A stretch of 64,000 bases of DNA from Neolecta irregularis DAH-3 (GCA_001929475.1 LXFE01000257.1:1-64000); one strand, 5' to 3'; numbered from the stretch's first letter, positions 1,354 through 62,753 are shown. Translations and numbers: made by a program. The notes: generated by a model from the letters alone, not told the origin.

Positions 1354-2369
1354 CATCGCTTTTTGCCTTGCTATTGCAAACGCTGCCAGCCACCGATTAA
1401 GCGTCTCTTCGCTCGAAGCTGCCATTCGATAGATTTTCCGATCCGTAATGATTTGGAAACAGTTATCCTTGTGTTTAGCCACCCCGTCAATCTCCACAAC
1501 TTCAGCAATTTCCGCAGTTGGTATTATTTTCTTGACCTTGTATTCCTCACAGTTAAGCTCGCTTTATGACTAGGAAATACCTCCGAATCAGGATAAAAAG
1601 CCAAAGACTTTCCACGAAGTACTATCCATCGTTTCTTCATCTTGTACCGTGATTGGATTTCCAAATGACCCTGCATAATAACTTTATCCTCCTTGGACTC
1701 GGTCGTTTTGTCCGAATTAAATGTAGATCTAATACCCCCAAATCGGGGATGTGAACCCGCAGACGATTTGTTCTCGCTCCCAGAGAGATACCCCCTCTCC
1801 GACCCCGAAATTATGTCCGACGGCGGTCCATCGGCATAATGCGACACATCAATCACTGGAGCACTCAACTGGGTCTCCTCAAGGTGGTCGGTCAATTCGG
1901 CTGTTTTGCGGATGTTATCAACCCAGGAATCAGTATCCGCGCTACTGTCTGCCGAGAAATAAAACGTCCGGTTTCGCGTAAACAAACCAAACACTACCCC
2001 CTTAGCCAGATGCAACTCCAAACGTACCGTTATCCCGCTTCCCTTTAATCCTCGCAGTAGCGGTCATCTCAGTAGTAGGAATAACTCGAAGGACTTTGTA
2101 CTCCTGAACTGTCAACAAACTCTACTTGCACCAGCAATGCCTTTTCATCTTTATAATATGCAAGCTGATGCGGTCTCAGCACGAACCAGCGGCGTTTCCA
2201 CTGCTTTCTCGTCAACCCAACTCACTAACAGAGATACCATCTTCCTTGTTTTTTTGTGCAACCACCCTACATGGACAATCTTTTCACCAGGAAGAATATC
2301 TTCATACAAAACCTCGCCAGCCTCGTTGGTGTCTGATACAGTGCTGGGTAAGGGAGACAGGTGTGTCAT
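1353..2369 (-). CDS. Tandem PH-domain protein (Opy1-like), 5 exons
   Basis: PH1 GWLHKKT..QWKRRWFVLRPHQLAYYKDEK|EYKV and PH2 QGHLEIQ..KKRWIVLRGKSLAFYPDSE|EYKV. Introns include 2204-2237, 2104-2140 (GC-AG) and 1546-1580 (GAG acceptor). Confidence 0.8.
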
Positions 2370-2552
2370 GTGTCGGAAAGGAATTGATCGAGGGATATGA
2401 ACGTCCGAGGTTATATCCTCCTCAGCAACAACACCTTGAATACATAAAACATATATTTAAATAGTGCACTCTGCTTATACAATAGATTAATGCATCTTTT
2501 GCTGCAACATGGCCAAGATGTCCTTGACGCAACTTTATACTTTTCTACTACA

Positions 2553-5500
2553 ATGCCATCACCAGCAGAACTCGCCACCCTGCAATCACATCCCAATGCG
2601 ATTCGCAATATCTGCATCCTTGCACATGTAGACCACGGCAAGACAAGCCTTTCTGATTCATTGCTCGCTTCAAATGGCATCATCTCGGCAAAGTTGGCCG
2701 GAAAGATTAGGTTTGTGTTCAAAAGACAGTGCTGATTACAGGTATCTCGATTCGAGAGAGGACGAGCAAATTCGAGGAATAACGATGAAATCGTCGGCTA
2801 TCTCTTTGTATTACAGAATTATGAGGGCTCAAGAAGATGGTGCGTCTACTTTGTTCTCAACTCAACTGCAGAATCATACAAAGCTTTTGAATACCTAATC
2901 AACCTGATCGATTCTCCCGGTCATGTAGACTTTAGCTCAGAAGTCTCTACAGCCTCAAGATTATGCGATGGAGCTCTAGTTCTCGTAGATGTCGTCGAAG
3001 GAGTATGCAGTCAAGCAAGTCGTTGTTCTTTCCCTCATTAATATCAGACAGTGACTGTTCTTCGTCAAGTTTGGACAGAACGAATTAGACCTATACTCGT
3101 CTTCAACAAAATAGATCGATTGATCACAGAGCTACGATTAACACCCCTCGAAGCCTACACCCATATGACCAAACTTCTAGAACAGGTCAATGCCGTAATG
3201 GGCTCATTCTTTGCCGGTGATCGAATGGAGGAGGATGCAAAATGGCGGGAGAGGAAAGAAGTAGGCGATCTCCATGATGAATTTATCGAAAAGGACGATG
3301 CGGATATTTATTTTGCCCCGGAAAGAGGGAACGTTGTATTCTCAAGTGCAATCGATGGATGGGCTTTCCGAATCGACCAGTTTGCAAAACTGTATTCAAA
3401 GAAAATGGGCATCAAAGAAGCCAACTTGAAAAAAGTCTTATGGGGAGACTATTTCTTTGACCCTAAAACGAAAAAGGTGCTACAGACAAAACATCTCAAG
3501 GGACGAAATTTAAAACCGATTTTCGTACAACTTGTTTTGGAGAATCTGTGGACGGTGTATCATTGTACTGTTATTGAAAAGTAGGTTCGTTGCTACTAAC
3601 TCACTGAGAGCTAATCTCTTAGAAATCAAGAAAAAGTTGAAAAAGTTGTCGAGGCATTGGAATTGAACATTCTTTCACGAGATATAAAGTCAAAGGATTC
3701 TCGAGCTTTATTGTCAACTATAGTATCCCAATGGCTGCCGTTATCTAGAGCAGTTCTCCTTGCAGTCATCGAAGAAATACCCACTCCAAGAGACTCGCAG
3801 AAACTTCGATTCCCTCAAATTATCTCAGAAGCACCTTTTTCCAAAATGCTGTCTCAAGAAATCAAAAAAGCAATGATTTCTTGTGATGGCAGCTCGGATG
3901 CGCCAGTTTCGGCTTACGTTAGTAAATTGATGGCAGTTCCCGAATCAGAACTCCCAGAGAAACAACGAAAGCAAATCACTGCCGAAGAGATGCGAGAACG
4001 AGGTCGTATACGTAGGGAGGCAAAAGGTCTCGAGTTGAAAAACGAATCCACCGAAATCGCCACAAATTCAGCAAATTCCACTCCTGAGGAAGAGCAACTC
4101 GAAGAAAACGAAAAGAAAGACAAGCAAGTGTTGATTGGATTCGCGAGACTGTATAGTGGAGTGATTAAAGTCGGTCAAGAATTGATTGTCCTTGGGCCGA
4201 AATATAAACCCTCGGAACCAGATCAACACATCTCTCGTATAATAGTGAAGAGCCTCTACATGATGATGGGCCGGGATCTACTTTCCCTGGACTCTGTTCC
4301 CGCAGGAAACGTATTTGGAATCGGTGGTCTAGAAGGCAAAGTTTTAAAAAGCGCAACATTGTATAATACTGAAGGAGGTATCAATTTTGCGGGCGTGACA
4401 ATGGGAACGAACCCTATTCTTCGAGTTGCTCTTGAACCTGTTTTTCCGCTGCAGATGGAACAGTTGGTTGAAGGGTTAAAATTGTTGAATCAGGCAGATC
4501 CCTGTGTGCAGGTTTTAATACAGGATACTGGGGAACACGTTATTCTTACTGCAGGAGAATTACACTTGGAGGTTTGTCCTGAGAATAATCACTATACTGA
4601 TAAGATTAGAGATGCTTGAAAGATCTAAGGGAGCGATTTGCAAAGATTGATATCACATCTTCCGAACCTATCGTTTCCTTTAGGGAGACGATCGTTGATG
4701 CAGTTGGTACGTCTTATAAATAAGAGTTGGCACTGAATCTAGATATGACAAAGGACTCGAGAGGAAGAATTGAGGTTTCGATTTCTTCCAAGCAAGTCAC
4801 TCTGCAATTCCGCATCCGACCTTTACCTTCAAATGTCACTGAATACCTAAAAACACATAATTTCCCAGCCAAGGGTGGAGACCGGAGAGCTAACGAAATC
4901 GGGAAAGAAGCAATCGAAGATGTCGAACAAAAGGAACTGGAAATGACACTTGAGAACTTTAAATTAGGGTTGGAGAAGGCTTTTGAAGCCGAAGGGGATG
5001 GGGATTCTTGGGAGGGCGTTGTTGATCAGATATCTGCGTTTGGACCAAGAAAAATCGGCGCAAACATATTGGTCGATCAAACTGGAGTTATTAGGAAATT
5101 GTACGTCTTTAAAATAGCAAAACTAACTAGTCCAGGTTTCCAGCAAGGCTTCCTGAACATGATTTGAAATTCCCAGATTATTGTTCTGGAATCACAACTA
5201 GAGATATTGGAGATCATATCCTCACTGGTTTCCAGCTTTCCGTGTTGTATGGACCTTTGTGCTCTGAACAAGTGGAAGGAATTGCCTGCTTTATCGAGAA
5301 AATCGAACTGTCCATTCCCCAAGACGAGAATGATCGTTCGCGGATATCCCAATTATCCGGGCAAGTAATATCCGCAACTCGCGACGGAATTCGTCAAGCA
5401 TTTCTAGAATATTCGCCACGTCTAATGCTTGCGATGTACACCTGCGACATCCAAACGTCACCCGATGTCCTTGGAAAAGTCTATGCTGTAGTTTCCCAAC

Positions 5501-5877
5501 GACGAGGACACATCGTCTCTGAGGAAATGAAAGAAGGAACTCCATTCTTTACTATTAAAGCGAAAATTCCAGTCATCGAATCCTTTGGATTTGCAGATGA
5601 TATTCGGAAACGTACTTCAGGCGCTGCAAGTCCACAGTTGATTTTCGGGGGATTCGAAATTTTAGATCAGGATCCCTTTTGGGTTCCTACTACTGAAGAA
5701 GAACTCGAAGATCTGGGAGATACTGCGGATAAAGAGAATATCGCAAAGCGATATATGGATTCTATTCGAAAGAGAAAGGTATGTCTCTTGTTCAATGTCG
5801 ACTAAGAAATAAAGGGATTGTTTGTGGAAAAGAAGCTGATTAAGAATGCAGAGAAGCAAAGGACTTTGAAACGGTAG
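2553..5877 (+). CDS. EFL1: Elongation factor-like GTPase for 60S maturation (Efl1/Ria1), 9 exons
   Basis: G1 [28 protein letters not shown]-terminal [14 protein letters not shown]...[18 protein letters not shown]. Introns 2711-2741, 2840-2871, 3015-3047 (GC-AG), 3581-3622, 4572-4609, 4707-4742, 5101-5135, 5779-5814. Confidence 0.95.
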
Positions 5878-9755: not shown

Positions 9756-12324
9756 ATGATTCGCCGCTTCCACTCTCTCCTCAGATCCAGATCTGCTATT
9801 CACCACCAGAGAAACACCCGTCTCTATTCCTCGCCCGTCGCTAAAGCTCTTCTCAGGTCGCTGCGCTTTCCCGCGCTCGGTGCTGGTGCCGGCGTCTCAA
9901 TCCTCGTCTGGGCAGACAACAAATTTGCCGAAGCTGCGGGCTACACAAAAGCAATTTGGGACTCAACTGCCGATACCCTGGCTAAAAGCTGGTCGAATAT
10001 CGCAGATGCTGCGGGATGGTTTCGGTTTAATGGACACTCAAACAAAGATCCCAAATCCACAACAACAATCACCGTGGCTGCGGCTACGGCTGCTGCATAT
10101 GCATTGGCAGACGATGACGACCTAGAAAATACCCGCAACCCCTTTGATGCCAACCACGACGATCAGATAATCGCCCTTACAAAAACAATGATCGAAATCC
10201 GTACCCTCCTTCAACAAGCGGGAAACACCACCGCCCTCATTATGCCCAGTATCGTCGTCATCGGCTCACAAAGCTCAGGCAAGAGCTCTCTCCTAGAAAC
10301 GATAGTCGGCCATGAATTCCTGCCCAAGTGCCTGCGTTCTCCTTACATATTCACTAACTCGCTCAGAGGTAATAATATGGTCACCCGCAGACCAGTAGAA
10401 TTAACCCTCATTCACACCCCAGACTCTGCTTCAGAGTACGGGGAATTCCCCGCTTTGAAACTCGGCCGTATCACGGATTTCTCCCAAATCCAGAAAACCC
10501 TCACAGACTTGAATCTCGCCGTGTCAGAATGGGTCACCGACGATCCAATACAACTAAACATATACTCCCCCCGCGTCCCAGACCTTAGTCTCATCGATTT
10601 ACCAGGATATATCCAGGTCACAAATCAAGATCAGCCTGATCGCCTGCGTGAAGAAATAGAACTCCTTTGTGAAAAATACATTAAACCCCCGAACGTTATT
10701 CTCGCTGTATGCGCAGCAGATATCGACCTAGCAAACTCCACAGCCCTCAGAGCAAGTAAACAAGTCGATCCAAAAGGCGATCGGACACTTGGCGTAATCA
10801 CAAAAATGGACCTCATTCCCGCGCAGGAAGGCTTCGAAATCTTATCCAACAACCGCTACCCCCTTCGACTAGGCTACATTGGCGTGATTTGTAAAGTTCC
10901 CCCACAAGGACTAATACGTCGATCCCGCAACATCACAGATCTCGTAACCAAAAATGAACAAGCATATTTCTCTGGTCACCCAGAGTACGAAAGCTGTGTA
11001 GTCGGCTCACTAAATCTCCGCAAACAGTTAATGAGAGTCCTTGCAAATTCAATGGCAAACAGTCTTCAAGCAACCCACAACCAGGTCAAGAAAAGCCTCG
11101 AACAAATCTCGTACCAATATAAAGTAAAATATAACGAACGCAATTTGACTCCAGAATCCTACGTCGCCCAAACAGTGGACCAAATAAAATCCCATTTCAA
11201 ACAAATCTCATCAAACCTCGACCGTCAAAAAGTCCGAGACCTTCTCAAAGAAAGAATTAACGCACAAGTATTAGATTTATTAGCTGAACTATATTGGGAC
11301 GTACAGGCTCATGAACCCAATATGACTGATCTTCCCCAAGCAAAACTCGACGATAAATACTGGAAAGCGAAATTGGAGACGGCGACCTACCGTCTTACTA
11401 GACTAGGCATAGGCCGTTTATCTACAGAAGCAACAGTCGATCGCGTAAGAGAATTAATCACGCAAATATGTAACGATTCATCTATCCACTCCCACGATTT
11501 CGCGAAACAACAAGTCATTCAAGCTTCTGAAGATATAATTGAACCAAAGGCATATCAAGCATCCGATCAAGTTGAAAATTGTATAAAACCTTTAAAATAC
11601 GAGATTGATATCGAGGAACGTGAATGGGACTGTGCAAGAATCAGAGCACTTGATCTTATTTCTACCGAAATTGAATTATTGGATCATGTTTTTGAGAAAA
11701 TTAGGGAAAGTGTAGGGAGTCGGTATCTTGGTAAAGTCACTTCTCTTCTCAGGGAGCATCAAGATGAGGATATTGAATTATTGGAAGGAAAAAGTGGGTA
11801 CAGTCTTGCTGTTTTGGAAAAGGGTAAGAAAAGAAAAGATTAAATGTAGGAGAGGACTAACATTTTAGGAAAGGAAGCTCTTCGGTGGAAACAACGAGCA
11901 GAGTTACTTCATTTTCGTAAAAGAGTGGTGTCTGGAAAACAATGCAAGTCGGTTAAAAACAGCTCGTTATGTCCTGAAGTTTTTCTTGACGTAGTTGCCG
12001 AAAAACTCGTATCCACAGCCGTGATGTTTATCAACGTTGAATTAATCTCTGAATTCATTCATCAGGTACACCTTTCCTTTTTATCTTCTAGGATATCTTT
12101 AATGGTATTTTTAGTTCCCGAGGGAGATTGATCATCGGCTGTTACAATCACTTACCCCTGAACAAATCGAATCATTCGCACGAGAAGATCCAGTTGCGAG
12201 AGATCATATTGATCTTCAAAGCAAAAAAGATTGTCTTGAACAAGCGTTGATTAAAATTGAGGGAATTATGGCTAGAGATCAACTGTCCAGACGGTCGAGA
12301 AGGAATGCAAGATATAGATTCTAA
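9756..12324 (+). CDS. MGM1: Mitochondrial dynamin-like fusion GTPase Mgm1/Msp1, 4 exons
   Basis: Presequence, two hydrophobic segments, GSQSSGKS, VTRRP, DLPG, TKMD. Introns 10328-10366 (in-frame, no stop), 11824-11868 and ~12066-12114. Confidence 0.95.
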
Positions 12325-12625: not shown

Positions 12626-14799
12626 CTAAATTCTTTGAATATCAACCCTTGTCCTTTCCCACAGTTTATGTTGGACCTCTTGTTGATTTTCTTCTATTTT
12701 CTGCGGATGAATACTCATCTTGGCCCAAGTACCCGGACCCCGCTTCTTTGTCAACGTACCTGGATTAATCGTAACCACATTTTCCACTACTTTAGCAAAA
12801 TGAAATAGTTCACTTGAAATTATCAAGATATCTGGAACCGCCTCGGAAAATTGTGCTAGTCCGAGAAAAGGCACGTCAACTTGTGAGCACGAAGACCCGG
12901 GAAATAATGGGTAAAAGTTTCGTTGGGCAAGTATATGAGAACACTGCCGTGCCATAATATTCTTATGATTTGGAGCCCTGGGAGAAAAAATAAGTTTTGG
13001 TTATAGTTTTGGATTAAACATGCCTCGTTATTTCTTCTTTTGATAAATGTAATAATATATCATTTGTCGAAACGCCGAGCGCGATCTCGTTCAATGAGAA
13101 TAATGCTGGGTTTGGAAGACACTTAAAGTTCTCCTTTGTCAATTTATTTCATTTGGGAAAACAATACTTTTGGTAATCCCATGTTTTTCCTGTCGAATCC
13201 TTGTTGAGGCCAACATGCATGCTTGTCACATGCATCCCTAGTGCTTGGAATCATGATAACTGTGGTTGAATTCGGTATTTGAGCGAGTTTACTAATCACC
13301 ATGTGTTTGAAGAAATCATCTAGAGTGGTGATGTCGGGGTTATCTATTTGTAAATCCCCGGAGACGACCATCGGGTTGTTTATATCCAGAAAGGGTCCAA
13401 GCTATTAATTCAGTAGGATTAAACATAGACAGAGTTTCACTAGAATTGCAACATCAGGCTTTTCATCGATTATCTTGTTGATTAGATCGGTTAAAGGTTC
13501 AAATTCAAGATCGTCTTCAGTAGTATACGGTCCTGAAGCAATGACGACTGACAAAGGCGTATCCCCAACTTTGTCTCTATAGTTTTTTATTTCTGCGATT
13601 GGAGTAATTGGCATCGGCAACATGGGCGTCTTGAGTAAGTCAAAAATATTTATATAACATACCGAATATATTTCTTTCACAGCAAAGTATCCTCCACCGG
13701 CATCATTACCTCTTAAAGCGACGATTTGTCCTGGAAAGAGAGCATAACTCGGGATATCATCAATCTTTAAGGGAACACGTGCGCCAGCACCTAGTCTTCT
13801 AGAAGTCTCGAGAACTAGCGAAGCAGGATTCAATCGACCTCCTGTAATCGAGTCACTTGCAATTCTCCCAATTGCAATTATATCAGTTTGTGATATTCTT
13901 GACGGATTTCCGAGATCATCCTCCGTAAAACTATGATGTCTTTGAAAGACTTCAGTAAACATCTCAATTCTATCGTCAAGAGCTGGAAATAAGCAAAATC
14001 CAAGGATACATAAGGATTTGTACTTTCTGAAGCGTCCATTAGCTTTTGATGCATTATCTTGAAAGAATATTTTGATAAATCAAGATTAATGGTCATTTTC
14101 ACTCGTGGTTCAGCATGATCCACAGGTTTGGCAATTTCCAGGTTGGGATTCAGGGTGTCGACTACCAGACCGGAATTTGTGCGTTGGGAGTAAGGCGTTA
14201 TTCTATATTATCAGAATATCTTTTGCAAAATAAATTTTGAACGATGTCAATTGGTTCTCTTTAAAGTTGGCAACAGGAGTCAACGGAGTTGTCCCAGTTG
14301 GAGTTTCGTTATTCAAAACCCTGGATTTGGTCTGAATCGGAGTTTCGTTCTGATTATTTTGACTTTTTCGTTTGATTCGTGGTGTGTTTGGACTTGATCC
14401 CTCCAATCTTCAATCAGTCTCATGTATCGCAGTTCCATACATATCATCAATATCCGCAGTCTTCCCAGCCCTCTTCTGGGGACCTTGATTATAATTCTTC
14501 TTGCGTTTATTTTTAATTTCGGTTTCAAGTCGGTTTTGAAGACCTTTCTTGAACATCCTTGCATTACTGAGATCAAGCTGCCGATCGTCTGCCATTTCAA
14601 TGCACCACGATTCCCATTTATAGAACAGTTCTAATGGTGAAATACTATACAGCCGAAGCATAGAAAGACATTCAGCCATGATATCCGGTTGATTCTCGAG
14701 AACTGGACCAAAATGGCTTCGCAATTCTGCTTCTACAGTATCGGATGAATTGACATTGATCGGTCCTTCATCGATTTGCATGGAATCTGCAGAATCCAT
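12626..14799 (-). CDS. POL12: DNA polymerase alpha/primase subunit B, 8 exons
   Basis: ELFYKWESW, LETSRRLGAGARVPL, ALFPGQIVA, ASGPYT, GPFLD, INPG motifs. Last intron 12978-13023 is GC-AG. Confidence 0.92.
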
Positions 14800-31899: not shown

Positions 31900-32885
<986 letters not shown>

Positions 32886-51437: not shown

Positions 51438-52663
51438 ATGCCGCCGTTCCACATTTCGATTGTGAATTGTCGGTCGGATCTTGGAAAACACCTCCGCGAA
51501 GGAGCTGTGGATCCGGAGGATCGATTATGCTATGCTTGTAATCACGAATTACCTTTATCTTACATTTCCTTGATCGACATTTATCTCAAGAGTTGTACTG
51601 TCCATGAACCAGCTGGAAATTCAATTCGACTTCCGACACCTCAGAGTCCATTGGTACAAGACTTTATTTCGCAAAATGCGCCTTCGTTGTCTACAGTACT
51701 ATCCACTACACACCTTAAAGACTCTCTGACCGTCGGAATCGATAAATGCGATCGAAAAGGAGAGATAGTTTCGATACCATCACATGTTCAATGTTCTTTT
51801 ACCACAGAACAAGACTCTTCAACAAATACGAATTTGATAGATGTACCTTTTAGCATCAGATACCTCACTTTCCATGACCGACCAACAGATAACCACAAAT
51901 ACATTAAAGTCACTATCGATCATCATGGATTTTCAGAGTCAGGTTACGTTAGAATTAAACCTACCGCAACGGATTTCTATTCATTTGGCGTATTCGACTT
52001 GTCTAGTATAAATTTCGGAACAGTCCTTCCAAATGAAAATAAAATCCCAGTCAACAAGTACGATCGATATTGTATCAGCAAAGCCCTTGGAACTACCATC
52101 ACTTTTGATTCTCTCGCTATTTCACCGATCCGAGCGTGTCCTTTAAATCCTTCCAAATACCAATATGTTGTTATTAAATATGGTGTATTCCCCGATTTAC
52201 CCTCTGCGCCGGGGAAATGCGGTCTTGTCCTTGATTTAATGAGCAATTTTCCTTCATATCCTCTTCGGGTATTTACAAGTCGGACCGGAACGTTATGGCG
52301 TTATCTCGGTATATACACACCCCTTTCTGGTATACGTCTAGTGTTGATTGAATAGGAGACTATCTGTTTAATATATATGGAGAACTCGATCCTTGTACGT
52401 CTTGGGAAATTTTACCTGAAGTGGAACGCGAGCATTGGATTAAATTCTTTATATCGGGAAATAGAAAACTTAAATTAAGTCGTTTGATCGAGATGGGATT
52501 CACGAGAAGAGAATCTCTTTCCTGTACCCCGGAAGTTGTAAGGACAGCTTTTGTAGAAGGTCGTTTAAGACTACGGTTGGTTTTGGTGAAATTTGTCATT
52601 TACGATCAAGAGTTTACGGAACGGATGGATCGTTTTGTTGTTACGCTAAGAGATGCTACATGA
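51438..52663 (+). CDS. Uncharacterised fungal protein, C-terminal DUF6697-like domain, 2 exons
   Basis: Long ORF with PDLPSAPGKCGL, LRVF and WRYLG|DY after removing a ~47-nt intron. Domain assignment from memory. Confidence 0.6.
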
Positions 52664-53729: not shown

Positions 53730-54182
53730 ATGAACGACGAAATCAACAAACTCGATGCATCGCTGAAAGGCTTAATTTTACAAATTGCGCAGATTTACCG
53801 GGCACGAGACAAATCTGAAAAGATGTAAAACATGGGATACTATTACTATTTACTCTCCTAGAAATGTTCCCACGTCCGCGTTTGGTCTGCCCGACACATT
53901 ACAAAAGGAATTGGAAAATAGGCTGGGAGAGTTTCACCAGGCGTGTGATGATATTGAGATACGATTGGTATGAATTGAAGTAGCCTCAAGAGGCTGATTA
54001 TTCAGAAGAGAGCAAGAGATACTATCTTGAATGAGATGAATGGTCCTGCAAGTCATTCAACACCGGTTGCAGTAAATGAAACGCCTGGAAAGAATGTGTT
54101 GGATTCCGGCGCAGCTGATAGTGATGTGAAAATGGAAGATTTGTTTGGAGATGAGACTTTGCAATTCGAGACGGGCGACTAG
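53730..54182 (+). CDS. Probable Mediator tail subunit Med29/Med2-like, 3 exons
   Basis: Helical LDASLKGLILQIAQIY and ELENRLGEFHQACDDIEIRL|KRARD, resembling the Med29 EEFYALCDQLE helix. Introns 53825-53861 and ~53968-54005. Confidence 0.55.
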
Positions 54183-54330: not shown

Positions 54331-55510
54331 CTAGGAGATAGCAGCAGTACTCGATGCTCGAGTCCCGTCATCGACAGGGAGCGGAAGACCAGCTTCACCT
54401 AATGTGCTAGACTCTGCGGGTGCGTGATGGAGACTTGGGTCTGGTTCTTTGTTGAGGTGAATGACCATACAGGTAAGATTATCAGTAGTGAACTGTTCAA
54501 GAGCATAAGCAACGAGCTTCTCGCTTGCGACAACCGGGTCTTTGATATCCCGGATGAGGTCGATTGCTTGTTGATCTGTGCATACATCCCATAACTATAT
54601 ATGAGACAAGACAAAAATGTTAGACTCACCCCATCGCATGCTAGGACGAGAATATTGTCGTCTTGGTCCAAAACGGTTTCGGTGGTAAATGGTCTGCTGG
54701 TGATGAGGTCTTTCATATACGCATCTCCAAGAGCTCGAGTTACAGCCAAGACACCTGCTCGTCAGTAAACGTATTATATAAAAAGCCTCCCATTAACACG
54801 ATTATTGAGAATTAACCCTCCAGACTCCGCGATTCTCTTCATTTCGTTTTCGTCACTTCCTTTATGATCATAACTCAGTCGAGTAGCCTGTCCTCCACGA
54901 CTTTCATCAATTCTAAACTCTTCGATAGCAGATACCTTAACACAGCCCGTGCATCCCCAACATTGGCTGTATATAGCATCCGGGATTTTGAGCCGTCCCG
55001 TTGTTCCCATCTAACAAGAGCAGTGACTGCAGTACATCCACAATGTTTCTGAGGGATGCTCTCCAAAGCCTTGTCTGTATGATTGAATGCGGCATCGAAG
55101 AGATCAGTGATGGATGCCTCAGGGTTCTTCTGGATGAACTCCTTGAAGAGAATATGGAACTTTTGACCACACCAATCCGCAGCTTCTCGGCCAGCATGTC
55201 CATCAAATATGCCAAAGAAACCCTGATCATCCACGCCAGCATAGTCATATTGATATATATGTGTATCCTCCATCGTCCTTCGGCATTTCTTGTTGGTGTC
55301 CTCTGAGACACCAACGCGAAAGGTAGTGGTAGGACCGGGAAAGCTAAGTTTCAATTTTGGCTTCGAAGACCGTCTCGGAGCTGGGGAGTCTTCCCGGGGC
55401 TTTGCGTCGGGTGATGAGCTGAATGGATTCATTCGAGATATTGCTGCAGAAAGAGAAGAACGGCGGCGAGAGAGCGATTTTTGGACATCGGAAGTGGAGG
55501 CTGAAGCCAT
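54331..55510 (-). CDS. PTC1: Type 2C protein phosphatase Ptc1, 4 exons
   Basis: [56 protein letters not shown]. Intron 54755-54790 has a GG donor. Confidence 0.93.
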
Positions 55511-56784: not shown

Positions 56785-57558
56785 ATGACTTCCACCCCTC
56801 TAGTCACTCCACAATCTGCGAGATTCTCCATCCCTCAATCGTCTATCGCGTCTTCTGTGCGTGCCTCTCTGTTAAAGCGATCTTCTATCTATGACAAGAA
56901 CCTAAATCGTACCAAGGGAGCTGAAACCAGCTTGTCTGCCTTTTTCTTCCTCTTCTCGGAGCTTATTCAGAATGTCCAACGCCAGGTCCAGGCAATCCCT
57001 GATCTCGAGAGAAAGTAAAACAATGCCTCGCTCTGCGCATGAATTCTGATTAGGCGAGGTTGAACGAGCACGGCTATCGTGTGGGTCAACGTTCTCTCGA
57101 ACTGATTATCTGGAGAGATCGGAATTCAAAGAGGGAAACACGGATTTTGTCACTTCTGCAATTCATACATACCTTTATTTGGAAAAGTCTGTTTGCCAAG
57201 ACTGCAGATGATTTAGAGAGAAGCACGGAGAACGATGACGAATGCATGACAGTATATTATGTATTCGAGTTAATAAGTGCAGATATGATCTATGATAATG
57301 ATCCCTTGGTCAATCGTTTCATCTCGGTGCCCAAAGAAATGTCGAGTCTCAATTGCGGTGCCTTTGTGGCGGGAATCATAGAAGCCGTATTGGACGGTTC
57401 TCAGTTTGTATATACCGTAATCGAATAAGAGAGATGCTGACTTGTAGCCCTCAAGAGTAACGGCCCATTCGTCCCCAACCGAAGCATTCCCGCAACGAAC
57501 AGTGTTCCTGATAAAACTGGATAAATCGGTGTTAGAACGCGAACAGTTCCTCAAATAA
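56785..57558 (+). CDS. TRS31: TRAPP complex subunit Trs31/TRAPPC5, 4 exons
   Basis: [45 protein letters not shown]. Introns 57015-57058 (GAG acceptor) and 57244-57282 (GC-AG). Confidence 0.93.
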
Positions 57559-57595
57559 AACGCCCATTTACATCCTATATCCCTTTTCCCAATGG

Positions 57596-58733
57596 CTAAC
57601 TCCTCCTTCGCTTAGACCCTCGGTCGTCCTTCATTCCACCCATTTTATTCAATGTACGTTTATTGATTGATGAATTTCTATCAAACCACGCACTATCTCG
57701 TTCTGTGGTATCTTGGTCGACCAAATGTGTATACCGCGTTTGACCAGCCTTGCCGAGTTTTGACAAGTCTTTCAACTGCATTGGCTTGGGAAGATTTTCT
57801 TTGTGCAGGGCGTCGTCTTGGACGGTTTCGAGATAGTTCCTGTTGAGAATTTCGTCGTCCTGGATATGGTTTAATATGAATATCATTTATGGGAAATATG
57901 TAAAATACCTGGTAAAACGCTCCTTTGTGCCAATATTTCTGCATGAACCGCATTTTCTCTTTTGGTTTCTCTTTTTGGGCGTCTACCCATTGCATATCCT
58001 CTGCCAATCTTTCCTCCTCGGTGAGATTTTTTCTTCGTTCGGCTTCTTCGATATCTTTCTCGCGTTGGATGAAAAAGTCTTTTTCTCGTTTAATTCGTTG
58101 TAGTTCGCGGAGCTTCCAGGTTGCTCGTTCGGCGGCGGGATCCAGATCATCAGTGTCAAGGATATCCCCGCCTTCGTCATCGCTTGATTCTTCGACCTCG
58201 CGCTTCAACTGTTGATCGATTAGGAGATGGGTATCTTCCTTATTGTTTGAAGAGACGATGGCATGGGAGTTTACATCCACTACAGTGTTTCTTTTGGGTC
58301 TGCTCTAATAAGCGAATAACGGCAAAGGGAGAGACTTGGGTATAAAGGTCGGTTTTAATAAAACCCTAGGTTTCTCCTCTTCACTTTCACTTTCTTCTTC
58401 CTCGGAAGATTCTGCCGTTGTATAGTCATCACTGTGATCTAACGGTGCAGCAGCTATCCTCTGGGATTCCTCGATCCTCGCACGTTCCTCCTCTGCCTGT
58501 TTACTTTGTTGAAACCTCTCATTTAGATCGACGTTCTTCAAGGCAATTGTAGGAGCGGATATTGAAGGTGCAGAGGGTCGTTGGTCTGTTTCTTGCTGCT
58601 CGTCGGCTTGAGAGTCTTCATCTTCAGGGGAACTCTCTCTTTCTGGAGCAGGGGCAACCCCTGGGCGGTAGCGAGGCGCCTTTACGACTTTTGTGAGCTT
58701 GCGATTGGCGCCTTTGTCTGCTGGTTTTCCCAT
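57596..58733 (-). CDS. MFAP1: Spliceosomal B-complex protein MFAP1/Spp381-like, 3 exons
   Basis: RYRPG, LKPTFIPK, WKLRELQRIKR, FMQKYWHKGAFYQ, GKAGQTRYTHLVDQDT. Confidence 0.9.
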
Positions 58734-58996: not shown

Positions 58997-59004
58997 GTAT
59001 AAAA
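58997..59004 (+). promoter_or_regulatory. TATA box of the U5 snRNA gene
   Basis: gtataaaa about 35 bp upstream of the predicted U5 5' end. Confidence 0.6.
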
Positions 59005-59033
59005 ATGGCAGGCATGGCCAGTCATGAAGCCCT

Positions 59034-59150: not shown

Positions 59151-59335
59151 TCTTTTTGTCTCTTTTCGGGGTAGAACTCGAACAGAACCAGGGAGATAGT
59201 AGTAGTGTTTGTAGTGATCCTGTCTGTAGAATGCTGTAGTGGTGATAAATCTGCTGCCCTATTTATCTGCTGTCCATTTAATATAGGCATGCCAAGTCTG
59301 AGTTGTGGTATCTGTCACCTCCCCAAAAGATAGCA

Positions 59336-60376
59336 ATGGACAAGAAAGACTTCATCGGCTTCGGTGCTACTCTTTCTCTCCGCGACGGGGCTCAAGTCAA
59401 GGGCAAGATCCGCGATGTCGACCCGGCCTCTCAGACGCTTTATCTGGACGATGGTAGCTCTACCTGTCGTTGTTCCATCCTGATCCCCAGTAAACATCCA
59501 CTATGTCGGCCCCTACAAATTCAGAGGCAGTGATATCCTCGACTTGTCCATGTTCCATATCGAGACTCCCCGCTCGCTCGTCTGCTCCCCTTACCAAATG
59601 CACTAAACACTTATTCTCGCAGGACTCGCCGACCCCTACTCGACCAACCCTTACTGTATCTGTCTGCCGCACTGCCATGCTCAACCCATAGAACACTGCG
59701 AATCCGTCAAAATCTCCAGATCAGCAGTTTTCCAAAACCAACCTCGAGTCTACCCAATTCCGTCCTCGAACCGCTCCTCAACAACAAAGAAAAAAGACTG
59801 GCGCCAGAAAAACCCCCCGTAAGGCTCAGATTCCCTCAGACTCGGAACAATGGGCCCATGATGATGTCGAAAACATCCTCAAAGCTCCAGATTTCGACTT
59901 TGAAAGTAACTTGGAATTGTTTGACAAACAAAAAGTATTCAATGATATTAGGGTGCCTGAATCCCACAAACATTGCACTTTATTAACAATCTCAGGAATT
60001 CGATGATACCGATCCACAATTACGACTAGTAGCCACCAACAAACGTCCTAAAAACTTATCTAACAGAGAAAATGTCATCCAAGACTTTACACACACTCGT
60101 TACCGTTTACAATCCAGTAAAGTCATCCCACAGTCAGAAAATCCTCAAAAAGTCGCTGAAACACCCCGGAGAAGTAATTCAATGTCAAGTATTACGGACA
60201 ACCTCGGGCTCCAGTTGACCGTCTCACCTCGCCCTCGACGCCGAGATATACCTCGCAGAAAGAGACGCGAGGATGATGATGCCGGGCCTGGGTGTCCTGA
60301 TGAGGAATTCGATTTCCAGGCAGCTTCTGAACGCTTTGATAAAAAACGGATTTTTGAAGACATTGCTCGGGGATAA
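59336..60376 (+). CDS. EDC3: Edc3-like decapping enhancer (Lsm + two FDF motifs, no YjeF_N), ~5 exons
   Basis: N-terminal Lsm (FIGFGATLSLRDG..VKGKI..GSDILDL), DFDFESNLELFDKQKVF..DPQLRLVATN, and second EFDFQAASERFDKKRIF at the C-terminus. Confidence 0.75.
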
Positions 60377-60633
60377 ACTAATAAACTATCACACCCAAGA
60401 TCTTGGACTCTTCTCTTTCCATAGGTGATTTATATGCTACTGTAGGACTTTTTCATCTCAATTTATTTCTTATACAAGTGCTATAGTAGTTACACATTCC
60501 CGAGCACATATCTTTCCGTGAACTGAAAACCAAACCGTGACTTGCAGGCTTGAAGTTGGAAACTACCAGTACCCGTTATCACTCTCTAATCTGCGCATTC
60601 CTGTCATCTATCCAATGCGCCAAGGTCATTGAG

Positions 60634-62753
60634 CTACCGAAACTGAAGTTTCCGCTGGCTTTTAGCTTCAGATGGGCTTGATTTCCTTTTACTCAACTTG
60701 ACAACCTGTCTTACTGAAGGGAGAGGCCGATCATCCTTAGATAAGCCTTTCGCGAAATGCCAATCGTCGTGTTCTTCGCGTTCAACAAATGGTATCAACT
60801 TCCCGTTGCATTTGTCGCACCGAAAACAGAACTCTTCGTCATGAAGAGTGGTGTAAGAACTAAGAGGTGATGCGAAACCTTTTGGTGATGCATATCCAGC
60901 TTCAGGGGAATAGTCTTTAGAGTTCTCAGTGTCGCTTGATCCGGCGTTATTTAATCCCTTTGATTTCTGTACGCCATCATGTTTCGTCTCTGATGATTCG
61001 AAAAATCTCTGAATTCCTCCTGTCTTAGTCTTTTTGAGCCCAGGTAGATGAAAAGATTCAGCTGTGCGTTTCGCCAGTTTGGCTTCTTCGCCTTTTAATA
61101 AAAAGGCCTAAGTATCATTAAACAACACCGCCGCGACAATTCTTACGGAAATGCCTCTCACTCCATCTTCAGCGCCTTCAAACCCGGTGAGACCAACGCT
61201 CAACATCGTACAAGGGTAACAACCATTTTCACTTTCAAGAGATTTCATTAGACTGACCGCCAGATAACTCGTATAGTCAGCCGTCAATTCCTTCCCAATC
61301 GGAATTGGTGCTTGACGTGATTTGTTGGCTCTATTAATACCCCGCTAGCAATAAGTATGGCCATGGGGAAGGAATATACATGATGAAGAGTAATAGTCTT
61401 AGGGCGCCTGGATAAGGGATCTTCGAGCAGTCTCGATGCAAGGTCAGCGGTCAATATGCGCATCCAGCGTTCCTGCTTTTAAGTTTTCATTCAAACGGGA
61501 TATTACCGCCTGCTCAATGTTGCCGATATTTGGTCGAAAATTCTTGGCGCTCATCATTGACTTGATCTGTGTTCGCGGGTTGACTAGCTGTCAATTACGC
61601 ATGAGTCCATGACGAACCTTCGGAATAATCAATGCCTCTTGAAATGGAATAAACCCAGGGCCCAGTTTCTAGGCCGAGTTTTCCTCGCAGTTCGTCAACG
61701 GAAAACCTCCTTTCACTGAGTCGGGGTCCGACACCAATACATGTACCAAAGCTCTCGACATAATTCGGTATTCAAAGATTCAGACACTTGCTCCCCCAGT
61801 TTCCCGCCCAAGTTACGAATTTTGGTGAACTTTAAATCAGCCAAAAATCCCATAACTGCTCGATCGCGGATAATGGTCTGCAATTAGCCCGATAATTGCG
61901 AGCGTGCTACCTGTTGATTCGGTTTCCGATAGGCAGAGCAAAGTTTAGCCAGCATTTTGTTCTTCGCAACGCCTGCTGAACAGGTATATTTAAGCTCTTT
62001 GAGAACGTGCAAACGTATATCTCTAACGATTTCGGCGCCAATCTGCAGACAGATATCATCCCAATCAGGAGGACCTTCCTCTGACTCCTCTTGTGACAGA
62101 GGAATTAGAGTGCCATGATCATCGATCCAATTACATGCAAGAGGAAGAGGAAGGTTGCAGGAGGCGTCGCCGTCGGGAGGAAAGGCTAGATAGGGGTACC
62201 TGTCTAGTAATTTTTCCCTAACAAGAGTAGAGAGATCAAGAAAAGATTCTGGGGTGATCAACTCATGTTCAGCGGCTGGAGTATGTACCGTCTACAGAAG
62301 CCTTCTCTGAAAGTGAGATATTGTATTAGCGGAGATGCAGTACCAACAGTATCGCAGTGCTGTCGGAAAATCTCGAGAATCTTCCTTCCCTCTCGGCGAT
62401 AAGGATCCAGAGAGACTACGCATGAGAAAGAGCACGAACCCCAAGGCACCTTTGTGGGTGGCCATATCGGGATTCAGATGATAGTGAGGCTTAACCTGGT
62501 CCTCCTTCCAAGTTTGGACATGCTGAAGAACCAGATGAGGACATTTCAGTAGCGCAGACTCGATGGTCTCATGGCGTGTCAACCCAAAAGCTCGGGCTGG
62601 GTAGTTGACCGCAATTATGCTGCGCCATTGCTGTACTGCCAATGGGGTATCAGGGGATAGCTGCAGGCGAACAAGCTCGACTTGTGAGTAAAAAGCGTCA
62701 AGATCGATATGGGCAATCACGCGCAGTGGCGAATCTCGGGCAGGTGCACGCAT
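60634..62753 (-). CDS. RAD30: Y-family DNA polymerase eta, 10 exons
   Basis: HIDLDAFYSQVE, IAVNYPAR, KVSLDPYR, EKASVD|ESFLD, CSAGVAKNKMLAKL, UBZ (CDKC..EHDDWHFA), PIP-like QRKLQF*. Confidence 0.93.

What the first reader, a model, noticed from the sequence alone, without database searches (positions are those of the whole stretch)
1546..62330. 3' splice site set by a branch-point ruler (6-9 nt), accepting any NAG and skipping closer AGs
Seen: a degenerate branch motif (CTRAY, TTRAY, CTYAY) lies 6-9 nt before the used AG, with little polypyrimidine tract. Frame restoration requires skipping AGs only 3-4 nt after the branch A: EFL1 ctaacTAGtccAG, TRS31 ctgatTAGgcgAG, MFAP1 cttatTAGagcAG, Opy1-like ttgacAGttcAG, RAD30 ttgacAGctAG, DMA1 cttacgAGgtAG. 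Acceptors include many AAG and at least three GAG (1546, 49502, 57058); in TRS31 a GAG is preferred over an upstream TAG. Established: GAG is the rarest acceptor in most eukaryotes. Inference: acceptor choice is distance-based.
Basis: partly seen in the sequence, partly recalled or inferred. Interest (0 to 1): 0.75.

Follow-up and report, generated by a model that had tools for sequence, protein, structure and literature searches.

The report
Branch-anchored 3' splice sites in Neolecta
This fungal window is full of tiny introns, about 37 bases long, whose 3' end lies 6 to 10 bases after a branch-like motif; closer AGs are ignored, which is a compact form of a known splicing rule rather than a new mechanism.

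Summary
The window is Neolecta irregularis nuclear DNA.

All six "skipped AG" motifs exist. Each junction is supported independently:
- EFL1 and Pol eta by exact mapping of the public protein models.
- TRS31 and MFAP1 by homologue alignments.
- DMA1 by FHA-domain continuity.
- The Opy1-like gene by internal paralogy.

Contigs of run X2 skip introns like transcripts. They confirm nine junctions, including the GAG acceptor at 49502.

In 49 curated introns:
- Length is 31-49 nt, median 37.
- The putative branch A lies 6-9 nt from the terminal G in 42, and 6-10 nt in 46.
- Fourteen introns hold unused AGs, with the G 1-6 nt after the A.
- The used AG is the first one at 6 nt or more in 48.
- The base at -3 is C19, T19, A7, G4.

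Branch-blind controls agree.

The data fit the known rule of steric exclusion followed by the first reachable AG, in miniaturised introns. A strict ruler is not shown, and YAG is still preferred. Anchored branch-to-AG distances are known in Yarrowia, Trichomonas and D. hansenii (PMC2483917). An intron-rich genome with degenerate signals is the new twist. Interest is moderate.

The parts
2711..2741 (+). EFL1/RIA1 intron 1, 31 nt, CTGAT, A->G 6, CAG
   Evidence: exact mapping of public model P0095; table
2840..2871 (+). EFL1 intron 2, 32 nt, CTCAA, A->G 7, CAG
3003..3047 (+). EFL1 intron 3, 45 nt, TTAAT, A->G 6, CAG
3581..3622 (+). EFL1 intron 4, 42 nt, CTAAT, A->G 8, TAG
4572..4609 (+). EFL1 intron 5, 38 nt, CTGAT, A->G 9, TAG; skips an AAG whose G is at 4
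4707..4742 (+). EFL1 intron 6, 36 nt, CTGAA, A->G 6, TAG
5101..5135 (+).
   Evidence: an in-frame AG 12 nt downstream exists, but the public model uses 5135
5779..5814 (+). EFL1 intron 8, 36 nt, CTAAG, A->G 9, AAG acceptor
62416..62449 (-). Pol eta intron 1, 34 nt, CTCAT, A->G 7, TAG
   Evidence: exact mapping of public model P0215
62307..62343 (-). Pol eta intron 2, 37 nt, CTCAC, A->G 7
62249..62288 (-). Pol eta intron 3, 40 nt, TTGAT, A->G 9
61878..61910 (-). Pol eta intron 4, 33 nt, CTAAT, A->G 6
61710..61746 (-). Pol eta intron 5, 37 nt, CTCAG, A->G 7, AAG acceptor
61584..61617 (-).
   Evidence: no in-frame alternative AG
61473..61506 (-). Pol eta intron 7, 34 nt, CTTAA, A->G 7; skips an AG whose G is at 4
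61345..61379 (-). Pol eta intron 8, 35 nt, CTTAT, A->G 7
61108..61146 (-). Pol eta intron 9, 39 nt, TTAAT, A->G 10
   Evidence: an X2 piece ends at 61106, within 1 nt
58300..58335 (-).
   Evidence: homologue alignment; X2 piece boundary at 58299; the public model P0335 instead removes 58320-58291
57860..57908 (-). MFAP1 intron 2, 49 nt, TTAAA, A->G 11 (outlier)
   Evidence: public model; MFAP1 profile 165|168; one X2 contig piece runs through it unspliced
57015..57058 (+).
   Evidence: 8 of 8 homologues join ERK|LNEHG; using the TAG gives a stop three codons on (sequence)
57244..57282 (+). TRS31 intron 2, 39 nt, GC-AG (GCATGA), TTAAT, A->G 9; skips an AAG whose G is at 4; in frame and without a stop
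   Evidence: 13-residue insert absent from 8 of 8 homologues
57408..57447 (+). TRS31 intron 3, 40 nt, CTGAC, A->G 7, TAG
   Evidence: homologues join GSQF|PSRV; an X2 piece starts at 57448
10328..10366 (+). MGM1 intron, 39 nt, CTAAC, A->G 9; in frame and without a stop
   Evidence: Dynamin_N profile 25|27 across the junction
11824..11868 (+). MGM1 intron, 45 nt, CTAAC, A->G 8
   Evidence: LIS_MGM1 profile 71|73
37841..37878 (+). Cullin intron, 38 nt, CTGAC, A->G 10, AAG acceptor
   Evidence: Cullin profile 396|398
37990..38026 (+). Cullin intron, 37 nt, TTAAT, A->G 9
   Evidence: Cullin profile 433|435
38110..38146 (+). Cullin intron, 37 nt, TTGAT, A->G 7, AAG acceptor; skips an AG whose G is at 3
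   Evidence: Cullin profile 461|about 466
38363..38399 (+). Cullin intron, 37 nt, CTAAC, A->G 8
   Evidence: Cullin profile 541|about 543
38515..38552 (+). Cullin intron, 38 nt, CTAAT, A->G 7, AAG acceptor
   Evidence: Cullin profile 578|580
52309..52355 (+). DUF6697-gene intron, 47 nt, TTGAT, A->G 8
   Evidence: profile 78|about 79; an X2 piece ends at 52307, within 1 nt
54901..54935 (-). PP2C intron 1, 35 nt, TTGAT, A->G 6, AAG acceptor
   Evidence: X2 joint 54900->54936
54755..54790 (-). PP2C intron 2, 36 nt, CTGAC, A->G 7, CAG; skips an in-frame GAG whose G is at 4; the only placement ending in AG starts with GG
   Evidence: X2 joint 54753->54790 with 2 nt of play; sequence; fills the gap 161|167 in the PP2C profile
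54595..54629 (-). PP2C intron 3, 35 nt, CTCAT, A->G 7
   Evidence: X2 joint 54594->54630; PP2C profile 211|212
34323..34362 (-). MPP (M16) intron, 40 nt, TTTAC, A->G 11 (outlier), AAG acceptor
   Evidence: Peptidase_M16 profile 43|44
13402..13440 (-). Pol alpha subunit B intron, 39 nt, CTGAA, A->G 8
   Evidence: DNA_pol_E_B profile 37|38
13131..13167 (-). Pol alpha B intron, 37 nt, TTGAC, A->G 8, GAG acceptor; an AAG whose G is at 5 would be skipped
   Evidence: profile about 111|115; the in-frame AAG 3 nt upstream cannot be excluded
12978..13023 (-). Pol alpha B intron, 46 nt, GC-AG (GCATGT), CTTAT, A->G 13 (outlier) with an all-pyrimidine spacer
   Evidence: profile about 149|151
49463..49502 (+).
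   Evidence: X2 joint 49462->49503, GT..AG
49562..49597 (+). NSUN5 intron 2, 36 nt, CTGAC, A->G 10
   Evidence: X2 joint 49560->49597, cut +1
50274..50309 (+). NSUN5 intron, 36 nt, TTGAC, A->G 6
   Evidence: Methyltr_RsmB-F profile about 59|62
18780..18818 (-).
   Evidence: FHA profile 2-30 | 33-67; 6ar0_A aligns from residue 1; with the GAG only 27 codons stay open
1546..1580 (-).
   Evidence: the downstream exon starts EYKV, as in the paralogous PH-domain exon; sequence
1994..2027 (-). Opy1-like intron, 34 nt, CTAAG, A->G 8
   Evidence: frame only
2104..2140 (-).
   Evidence: not counted among the 49
2201..2237 (-). Opy1-like intron 1: TTGAC followed by three AGs (G at 4, 8, 11); 2204 and 2201 are both in frame and unresolved
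   Evidence: reading; not counted among the 49
53825..53861 (+). intron of an unnamed + strand gene, 37 nt, TTTAC, A->G 9
   Evidence: X2 joint; sequence
53968..54005 (+). intron of the same gene, 38 nt, CTGAT, A->G 8
   Evidence: X2 joint, cut +1
63673..63712 (+). intron of a + strand gene at the window's end, 40 nt, TTAAT, A->G 8
   Evidence: X2 joint
63834..63870 (+). GC-AG intron (GCATGT), 37 nt, TTGAA, A->G 9
   Evidence: X2 joint 63831->63869 with 2 nt of play; only the +2 placement gives GC..AG
48503..48535 (-). Histidine-kinase gene intron, 33 nt, CTCAA, A->G 7
   Evidence: an X2 piece ends at 48501, within 1 nt
59953..59995 (+). Scd6-like gene intron, 43 nt, TTAAC, A->G 9
   Evidence: an X2 piece starts at 59995, within 1 nt

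Best explanation
These are ordinary U2-type spliceosomal introns of Neolecta irregularis, shrunk close to the smallest workable size.

The anatomy in the 49 curated introns is as follows.
- Total length is 31-49 nt, with a median of 37.
- A degenerate 5' splice site comes first.
- About 24 nt or more downstream comes a degenerate branch motif, Y-T-N-A-Y/R.
- The 3' AG follows 6-10 nt after the branch adenosine.
- There is no polypyrimidine tract.

Proposed mechanism (inferred). After the branching step the lariat holds the branch adenosine at the catalytic centre. An AG whose G lies about 5 nt or less downstream cannot be threaded into the active site, so it is invisible. The first AG that can reach is ligated.

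Because the 3' site is found by proximity to the branch, the usual check on the -3 base is weaker. AAG and GAG are therefore tolerated more often, although YAG still dominates.

Shown here: the intron positions, the lengths, the motif-to-AG spacing, and the non-use of proximal AGs.

Inferred: that the motif's A is the branch point, and that steric exclusion is the cause.
For: IDENTITY. Exons are 100% and 98% identical to N. irregularis DAH-3 proteins.

JUNCTIONS. The 49 curated introns rest on these kinds of support:
- 9 on X2 joints.
- 18 on exact mapping of public protein models.
- 4 on homologue alignments.
- 14 on Pfam profile continuity.
- 2 on X2 piece boundaries.
- 2 on paralogy or reading frame.

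SPACING. The A-to-G distance is 6-9 nt in 42 of 49 and 6-10 nt in 46 of 49, mean 8.1, SD 1.5. In the 23 introns with no in-frame alternative AG it is 6-9 nt in 19. In the 9 introns with X2 joints it is 6-10 nt in 9 of 9.

BLIND CONTROLS. 32 of 78 against 299 of 7703. 29 of 41 by motif discovery without a position prior.

EXCLUSION ZONE. 14 of 49 introns hold unused AGs, with the G at 1, 3, 4 or 5 nt, and once at 6 nt. AG density in the zone is 0.058 against 0.045 intron-wide. The used AG is the first at 6 nt or more in 48 of 49. PP2C intron 2 shows the skip of an in-frame GAG at 4 nt directly in an X2 contig.

LITERATURE (passages read).
- In S. cerevisiae the shortest natural BP-3'SS distance is 10 nt. 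Prp18 is proposed to act as a ruler imposing that minimum. Cells lacking PRP18 use sites down to 7 nt and more GAG and other non-YAG sites. Slu7 and Prp18 are dispensable when the distance is short (PMC10711555).
- In S. pombe the BP and 3'ss are on average 12 nt apart, and a 6-nt spacing is near the lower limit (PMC9508853).
Against: - No branch point was mapped. The branch A is assigned from a degenerate motif. Only 29 of 49 are strict YTRAY; 10 are YTYAY and 10 YTNAR. My assignment breaks ties towards 8 nt.
- In 18 of the first 41 curated introns an in-frame alternative AG lies nearby. There the acceptor rests on annotation or on profile continuity of limited resolution.
- The public annotation is not always right. 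The MFAP1 model conflicts with homologues and with X2.
- X2 is labelled 'DNA?' by the tool. That it derives from transcripts is my inference from its joints. Only 15 of 41 joints were listed. The TRS31 57058 and Pol eta 61584 joints were not among them.
- One X2 piece runs unspliced through MFAP1 intron 57908-57860.
- The sample is one 64-kb window, about 26 genes.
Confidence: 0.75

Rival explanations
1. A true ruler. The Neolecta spliceosome measures a fixed span of about 7-9 nt from the branch and ligates whatever NAG lies there. It skips AGs that are too near and also AGs that are too far, whatever their sequence.
For: The distribution is very tight: 42 of 49 at 6-9 nt, SD 1.5. An in-frame GAG at 6 nt in MFAP1 is bypassed for a CAG at 9 nt. 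Four GAG and seven AAG acceptors are used. The one intron seen unspliced in an X2 contig is an 11-nt outlier.
Against: Distances of 10 nt (4 introns, two with X2 joints), 11 nt (2) and 13 nt (1) are used. YAG is still 38 of 49. A tight distribution also follows from selection for short introns.
Confidence: 0.15
2. The motif is not the branch site. It would be an extended 3' splice-site element, for example a protein-binding site, and the real branch lies elsewhere in the intron.
For: The motif is degenerate, and no lariat data exist. Several introns carry a second, stronger CTAAC or ACTAA further upstream, for example EFL1 3581, Pol eta 62343 and Cullin 37841.
Against: The motif has the form of the U2-pairing branch consensus, with T and A nearly invariant at the expected positions (frequency 0.97 each). 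Introns of 31-37 nt leave little other room: the A sits 25-39 nt from the 5' end. Most introns have only this one candidate.
Confidence: 0.07
3. An artefact of gene modelling. The introns or their acceptors are mis-called, and the proximal AGs are the ones really used.
For: Part of the catalogue rests on my own models and on a public annotation that is wrong in at least one place.
Against: Nine joints are seen in X2 contigs. Homologue alignments have no gaps at the junctions. The proximal AGs shift the frame and soon meet a stop. The branch-blind controls agree.
Confidence: 0.03

Closest known systems
Anchored branch-to-AG distance in Yarrowia lipolytica, Trichomonas vaginalis, Giardia lamblia, Debaryomyces hansenii and Eremothecium gossypii (Irimia and Roy 2008, PMC2483917; passages read)
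   Same: The branch motif sits a narrow, species-typical number of bases before the terminal AG, and there is no polypyrimidine tract. By my count from the branch A to the G, those species lie at about 5 nt (Yarrowia), 7 nt (Trichomonas, Giardia) and 9-11 nt (D. hansenii). Neolecta lies at 6-10 nt.
   Different: Those lineages are intron-poor and have near-invariant branch consensus sequences such as ACTAAC or WCTAACA. Neolecta is intron-rich: about 4 introns per gene in this window, and 4202 introns against 862 in S. pombe at shared sites (PMC7940399). Its branch motif is degenerate (29 of 49 strict YTRAY), as is its 5' site.
Exclusion of branch-proximal AGs, then use of the first AG downstream (mammalian 'AG exclusion zone' and scanning model). 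Gooding et al. 2006, PMC1431707, was seen only in a search listing. Smith et al. 1993 is recalled, not seen.
   Same: AGs too close to the branch are not used, and the next AG is.
   Different: The excluded span here is about 5 nt, and the used AG follows at once. In mammals the branch usually lies 18-40 nt upstream with a polypyrimidine tract between (figure recalled).
S. cerevisiae lacking PRP18, and Slu7/Prp18-independent short-spacing substrates (PMC10711555; passages read)
   Same: BP-3'SS distances below 10 nt, down to 7 nt, and more use of GAG and other non-YAG sites. This is the combination seen as the normal state in this window.
   Different: In yeast it is a mutant phenotype of alternative sites. 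Here it is the constitutive architecture. Whether Neolecta has an altered PRP18 or SLU7 could not be tested.
Schizosaccharomyces pombe introns, another member of the Taphrinomycotina (PMC9508853; passages read)
   Same: Short introns, degenerate signals and a short branch-to-3'ss spacing.
   Different: The S. pombe spacing averages 12 nt, and a 6-nt spacing was near the lower limit in reporters. The Neolecta mean is 8.1 nt, with 6-7 nt common (20 of 49), and its introns are shorter.

Membership tests
U2-type (major) spliceosomal introns | GT (rarely GC) at the 5' end and AG at the 3' end | tested here: met
   45 GT, 3 GC and 1 GG among 49; AG in 49 of 49
U2-type (major) spliceosomal introns | Removal restores a conserved reading frame, and the segment is absent from transcripts | tested here: met
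   9 joints in X2 contigs
U2-type (major) spliceosomal introns | Branch adenosine in a YNYURAY-like motif that pairs with U2 snRNA | tested here: inconclusive
   The motif R-Y-T-N-A was found without a position prior. No lariat data and no U2 snRNA sequence were available.
Anchored BP-AG 3' intron structure (Irimia and Roy 2008) | Branch motif at a narrow distance from the terminal AG | tested here: met
   42 of 49 at 6-9 nt; blind controls
Anchored BP-AG 3' intron structure (Irimia and Roy 2008) | No 3' polypyrimidine tract | tested here: met
   pyrimidine fraction 0.53 between motif and AG, against 0.51 intron-wide
Anchored BP-AG 3' intron structure (Irimia and Roy 2008) | Strong, near-invariant branch consensus | tested here: not met
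   29 YTRAY, 10 YTYAY and 10 YTNAR of 49
Anchored BP-AG 3' intron structure (Irimia and Roy 2008) | Intron-poor genome | tested here: not met
   92 introns modelled in about 26 genes; 8 and 9 introns in two public models; PMC7940399
Steric exclusion of branch-proximal AGs, first AG beyond is used | AGs just downstream of the branch are present but unused | tested here: met
   14 of 49 introns, with the G at 1-5 nt, once at 6 nt; the PP2C case is seen in an X2 contig
Steric exclusion of branch-proximal AGs, first AG beyond is used | The first AG beyond the excluded span is the one used | tested here: met
   48 of 49
Steric exclusion of branch-proximal AGs, first AG beyond is used | Experimentally mapped branch point | not testable with these tools
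   no raw RNA reads or lariat data were available
Slu7/Prp18-independent short-spacing substrates | BP-3'SS distance below about 10-12 nt | tested here: met
   46 of 49 at 10 nt or less
Slu7/Prp18-independent short-spacing substrates | Second step proceeds without Slu7/Prp18, or these factors are altered or absent | not testable with these tools

The most novel reading that the evidence does not exclude
Neolecta may have lost or remodelled the second-step factors that in budding yeast set a minimum branch-to-3'SS distance and check the -3 base. These are Prp18 and Slu7, and perhaps also U2AF35 or the Sde2/Cactin/Tls1 group. Its spliceosome would then be a natural, intron-rich counterpart of a PRP18-deleted yeast. 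The 3' splice site would be defined almost wholly by the branch site plus a reach of 6-10 nt. That would permit introns near 31-37 nt and acceptors such as GAG.
Probability: 0.2. Interest if true: 0.65.

Novelty: new variant of a known kind. Interest (0 to 1): 0.38.

Why it matters
Anchored branch-to-AG spacing has been described as a convergent trait of intron-poor lineages with rigid consensus signals (PMC2483917). Here the same anchoring appears in an intron-rich ascomycete whose 5' and branch signals are degenerate and whose introns are about 37 nt long. In that setting spacing, rather than sequence, may carry much of the information for 3' site choice.

Practical use. The rule 'first AG at 6 nt or more after Y-T-N-A' picks the acceptor that homologues and X2 support in MFAP1, where the public model appears wrong. 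It also reveals in-frame introns without stops, and GC-AG introns, that gene finders miss. It could therefore improve the annotation of this genome.

Testable prediction. The second-step factors Prp18 and Slu7 may be relaxed in this lineage.

My searches of the held library found no paper that describes Neolecta splice signals. The main text of the genome paper contains neither 'intron' nor 'splic'. Its supplements were not seen and may hold intron statistics.

Tried and rejected
- Whole genome: none is held for this window. No genome-wide histogram was possible, and no search for PRP18, SLU7, U2AF or SF1.
- Sequencing runs: no RNA holder was listed. Two runs labelled 'DNA?' were found and laid. 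The joints at TRS31 57058, Pol eta 61584 and several others could therefore not be read.
- X2 record 12: its length between 56863 and 57448 implies 116 nt skipped, against the 123 nt I predict for the three TRS31 introns. This is unresolved.
- Earlier findings of the scan: none.
- PDB search with DMA1 exon 1: no match.
- Pfam at E up to 10: nothing for NSUN5 exons 1-2 or for two small Opy1-like exons.
- My gene finders were noisy. They mis-modelled the triosephosphate isomerase gene (a false 123-nt intron at 32211-32333), the donor of PP2C intron 2, and the 5' end of Pol eta. They missed TRS31, the Opy1-like gene and two + strand genes. For that reason only 49 individually supported introns were counted, out of about 100 modelled.
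- Left out as unresolved: Opy1-like intron 1 (acceptor 2204 or 2201), Opy1-like intron 2 (donor 2140 or 2131), the Tel1 introns between 27582 and 27700, cullin 37505-37542, and all introns of the genes at 15684-17787 and 8245-9565, which have no homology support.
- A stop-codon reassignment or readthrough reading of the same-frame ORF pairs split by one stop was considered and dropped. Those stops lie inside introns of the mapped models.

Full report
WHAT THE WINDOW IS

The window is eukaryotic nuclear DNA of about 45% G+C. It carries about 26 protein genes. Among them are EFL1/RIA1, a cytochrome-b5 desaturase, MGM1, DNA polymerase alpha subunit B, DMA1, Tel1/ATM, MIP1, an M16 peptidase, a cullin, eIF2B, a GAF histidine kinase, NSUN5, PP2C, TRS31, MFAP1, an Scd6-like gene and DNA polymerase eta.

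One EFL1 exon is 100% identical to 'Ribosome assembly protein 1 [Neolecta irregularis DAH-3]' (P0095). A Pol eta exon is 98% identical over its aligned part to the same organism's DNA polymerase eta (P0215). Both lie on a contig of 80,966 nt.

No whole genome is held for the window.

According to passages of the genome paper (PMC5309816):
- The assembly is 14.5 Mb with 44% GC.
- It has 5,546 predicted genes, 99.4% of them 'supported by RNAseq data'.
- The main text contains the words 'intron' and 'splic' zero times.
- Its supplements were not seen.

THE SIX 'SKIPPED AG' CASES

1. EFL1. P0095 maps letter for letter onto the + strand with eight introns of 31-45 nt. One of them is 5101-5135.

2. 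P0215 maps exactly with nine introns of 33-40 nt. One of them is 61617-61584. No in-frame alternative AG exists there.

3. TRS31. In a tblastn of eight full-length homologues, all eight align exon 1 up to ...DLERK at 57015. All eight resume at LNEHGYRVG just after 57058, with adjoining residue numbers. S. pombe even shares the string [10 protein letters not shown]. This requires the GAG at 57058. The upstream TAG would give a stop three codons on (sequence).

4. MFAP1. The public model P0335 removes 58320-58291, a 30-nt intron, which gives ...FIPKSLPLP|NTVV. In an alignment with 40 homologues, the conserved block is KPxF[IV]xK-x-[KR]R. Several rows read 'FIPKS-KRNT'. The public model needs a 2-residue insertion and loses the conserved basic pair. 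A contig piece of run X2 also ends exactly at 58299.

5. DMA1. The FHA profile covers positions 2-30 at the end of exon 1, which ends ...VVSRNHAEMKCDDGR, and positions 33-67 from residue 1 of exon 2, which begins WYIRDIGSSSGTFLN. PDB chain 6ar0_A aligns from residue 1 of exon 2. With the proximal GAG only 27 codons stay open.

6. Opy1-like gene. The exons that follow acceptors 2104 and 1546 both begin EYKV. They align residue 1 to residue 1 (BLASTP E = 2e-6 for the single comparison). The two PH domains therefore carry introns at the same position. The donor of the first of these is unresolved: a GC donor giving 37 nt, or a GT donor giving 28 nt.

TRANSCRIPT-LIKE CONTIGS

No run on record as RNA was listed. 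I laid the two listed runs on 44001-64000.

Run X1 was collinear with the window. Contigs of X2 skip short segments that X1 keeps. Nine of the 15 joints printed are X2-only, skip 35-40 nt and coincide with introns:
- 49463-49502 (40 nt, GT..AG).
- 49562-49597.
- 53825-53861.
- 53968-54005.
- 54595-54629, 54755-54790 and 54901-54935, the three PP2C introns on the minus strand.
- 63673-63712.
- 63834-63870.

The exon parts of these contigs carry zero or one other letter. I therefore take X2 to be derived from spliced transcripts. The tool labels it 'DNA?', so this is my inference.

What these joints show:
- The GAG acceptor at 49502 is confirmed.
- An AAG acceptor at 54901 is confirmed.
- In PP2C intron 2, an in-frame GAG 4 nt after the motif A is skipped in favour of the CAG at 7 nt.

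The spliced PP2C reading gives ...[13 protein letters not shown]. It fills a gap that my own model left in the PP2C profile (161|167).

Piece boundaries also fit acceptors 57447, 58300, 48503, 59995 and 61108, to within 1 nt.

Against a simple picture, one X2 piece runs through MFAP1 intron 57908-57860 without a gap. The joints at 57058 and 61584 were not among the rows shown, because 26 joints were cut from the output.

STATISTICS WITHOUT CIRCULARITY

Gene finder blind to the branch. I ran a dynamic-programming gene finder that used only coding potential, GT/GC..AG ends, a weak donor score and an intron-length prior. It used no branch or acceptor context, and it predicted 78 introns.
- A strict YTRAY had its A 6-10 nt from the 3' G in 32 of the 78.
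- At 11-15 nt the count was 2, at 16-20 nt it was 4, and at 1-5 nt it was 3.
- Among all other AGs of the window it was 299 of 7703. The odds ratio is 17 and Fisher p = 4e-24.
- The histogram peaks at 7-8 nt. A decoy motif of equal degeneracy is flat.

Motif discovery without a position prior. I ran it on the last 22 nt of the first 41 curated introns.
- It returned R-Y-T-N-A, with T and A each at frequency 0.97.
- It placed the A 6-9 nt from the G in 29 of 41, where about 9 are expected (p = 5e-11).
- Most of the others have a second motif in that range.

THE CURATED SET

I counted only introns with individual support: 49 in all (classes counted).

Support:
- 9 with X2 joints.
- 18 in exactly mapped public models.
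- 4 by homologue alignment.
- 14 by Pfam profile continuity across the junction.
- 2 by X2 piece boundaries.
- 1 by paralogy.
- 1 by reading frame alone.

Size and spacing:
- Length is 31-49 nt, median 37.
- The A-to-G distance, counted as in PMC10711555, is 6 nt (6 introns), 7 (14), 8 (10), 9 (12), 10 (4), 11 (2) and 13 (1).
- That is 42 of 49 at 6-9 nt and 46 of 49 at 6-10 nt, with mean 8.1 and SD 1.5.
- The A lies 25-39 nt from the 5' end (SD 3.4).
- Among the 23 introns with no in-frame alternative AG, 19 are at 6-9 nt.

Motif classes: 29 YTRAY, 10 YTYAY and 10 YTNAR.

Base at -3: C 19, T 19, A 7 and G 4.

Donors:
- 45 GT, 3 GC and 1 GG.
- Positions 3-6 are only weakly conserved. In the first 41, A at position 3 in 28, G at position 5 in 20 and T at position 6 in 25.

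Pyrimidine content is 0.53 between motif and AG and 0.45 upstream. It is 0.51 over whole introns. There is no polypyrimidine tract.

Unused AGs:
- Fourteen introns hold an unused AG between the A and the used AG, with the G at 1 nt (3), 3 (2), 4 (8), 5 (1) and 6 (1).
- AGs are as common in that zone as elsewhere in introns: 11 of 190 slots against 64 of 1419.
- The used AG is the first one at 6 nt or more in 48 of 49. The exception is the MFAP1 GAG at 6 nt.

Caveats:
- The branch A is inferred from a degenerate motif, and ties were broken towards 8 nt.
- In 18 of the first 41 introns an in-frame AG lies nearby, so those acceptors rest on annotation or on profile continuity.
- This is one window only.

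HOW IT MOST LIKELY WORKS

These are ordinary U2-type introns reduced to near-minimal size. After branching, an AG about 5 nt or less from the branch adenosine cannot reach the catalytic centre. The first AG that can reach is ligated. Proximity to the branch replaces the polypyrimidine tract and part of the -3 check.

The literature fits this reading.
- In S. cerevisiae the shortest natural BP-3'SS distance is 10 nt. [quoted passage not shown] Cells lacking PRP18 use sites down to 7 nt and more GAG and non-YAG sites. Slu7 and Prp18 are dispensable for short spacings (PMC10711555, passages).
- In S. pombe the branch and 3'ss are on average 12 nt apart. Reporters with a 6-nt spacing splice in wild type but are near the limit (PMC9508853, passages).

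It is not needed either.

COMPARISON WITH WHAT IS KNOWN

Anchoring of the branch site a fixed few bases before the AG, without a polypyrimidine tract, was described for Yarrowia, Trichomonas and Giardia. Narrower ranges were described for D. hansenii (6-8 nt after TACTAAC), E. gossypii and some Candida species. It was interpreted as convergence in intron-poor lineages with strong consensus signals (PMC2483917, passages).

Neolecta shares the anchoring and the missing tract. It fails the other two features.
- Its branch motif is degenerate.
- It is intron-rich. I modelled 92 introns in this window. Two public models hold 8 and 9 introns. Neolecta has 4202 introns against 862 for S. pombe at shared alignment sites (PMC7940399, passage).

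I therefore file it as a new variant of a known kind. It works like the known rule of branch-anchored, sterically limited 3' site choice. It is not a plain member of the intron-poor, strong-consensus class.

My searches found no paper describing splice signals of Neolecta. The search 'Neolecta' plus 'intron' gave 33 papers, of which 15 were listed. The search 'Neolecta' plus 'spliceosom' gave 5 papers.

The classical work on branch-proximal AG exclusion and on Slu7/Prp18 distance dependence is recalled, not read here. This means Smith et al. 1993, Brys and Schwer 1996, Zhang and Schwer 1997, and Luukkonen and Séraphin 1997.

VERDICT

The finding is useful for annotating this genome, and it gives a concrete prediction about second-step splicing factors. 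The mechanism is most likely the known one. Interest is moderate.

Noticed in passing
57244-57282 (+), 12978-13023 (-), 63834-63870 (+); candidate 2104-2140 (-): GC-AG introns whose donors all begin GCATG (GCATGA, GCATGT, GCATGT); the Opy1-like candidate begins GCATTG. They make 3 of the 49 curated introns, which looks high for GC-AG. One is seen as an X2 joint.
   Followed up: partly
54755-54790 (-): PP2C intron 2, as skipped by an X2 contig, has only one placement that ends in AG, and that placement begins GG (GGAGGC). It may be a non-canonical 5' splice site, or a difference between the window and the X2 source.
   Followed up: partly
58291-58335 (-): The public N. irregularis MFAP1 model (P0335) removes 58320-58291. 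Homologues and an X2 piece boundary favour 58335-58300. This is a likely annotation error.
   Followed up: yes
56812-57560 (+): No N. irregularis TRS31 protein appeared among the 94 hits of 67-214 residues; the best hit had 63% identity. The gene may be unannotated or modelled differently, perhaps because of its stopless in-frame GC-AG intron.
   Followed up: no
57860-57908 (-): One X2 contig piece (57448-58299) runs through this 49-nt MFAP1 intron unspliced, although the same contig is spliced at 58300. This intron is one of the two 11-nt spacing outliers.
   Followed up: no
10328-10366 (+), 57244-57282 (+): These 39-nt introns carry no stop in the coding frame, so retention would add 13 residues without any stop. 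Overall 14 of the first 41 curated introns have a length divisible by three, so such introns are not depleted.
   Followed up: partly
57448-58299, 59995-61106, 53168-54936: Single X2 contigs span convergent gene pairs: TRS31 with MFAP1, the Scd6-like gene with Pol eta, and an unnamed + strand gene with PP2C. This suggests overlapping or abutting 3' ends of transcripts (table 8).
   Followed up: no
44800-45500, 52980-53220, 55800-56030: These intergenic stretches have several-fold higher contig depth, many variant letters and small indels in both runs. They look like members of a dispersed repeat family (tables 2-4).
   Followed up: no
1140-1340: Direct repeats of about 30-100 nt lie downstream of the Opy1-like gene; two sequence blocks each appear twice (sequence).
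   Followed up: no
31939-32869 (+): A triosephosphate isomerase gene, with TIM profile hits in two exons. My models handled it badly, so its introns were not counted.
   Followed up: no
45703-49158 (-): A hybrid histidine kinase with GAF, HisKA, HATPase_c and receiver domains, possibly phytochrome-like.
   Followed up: no
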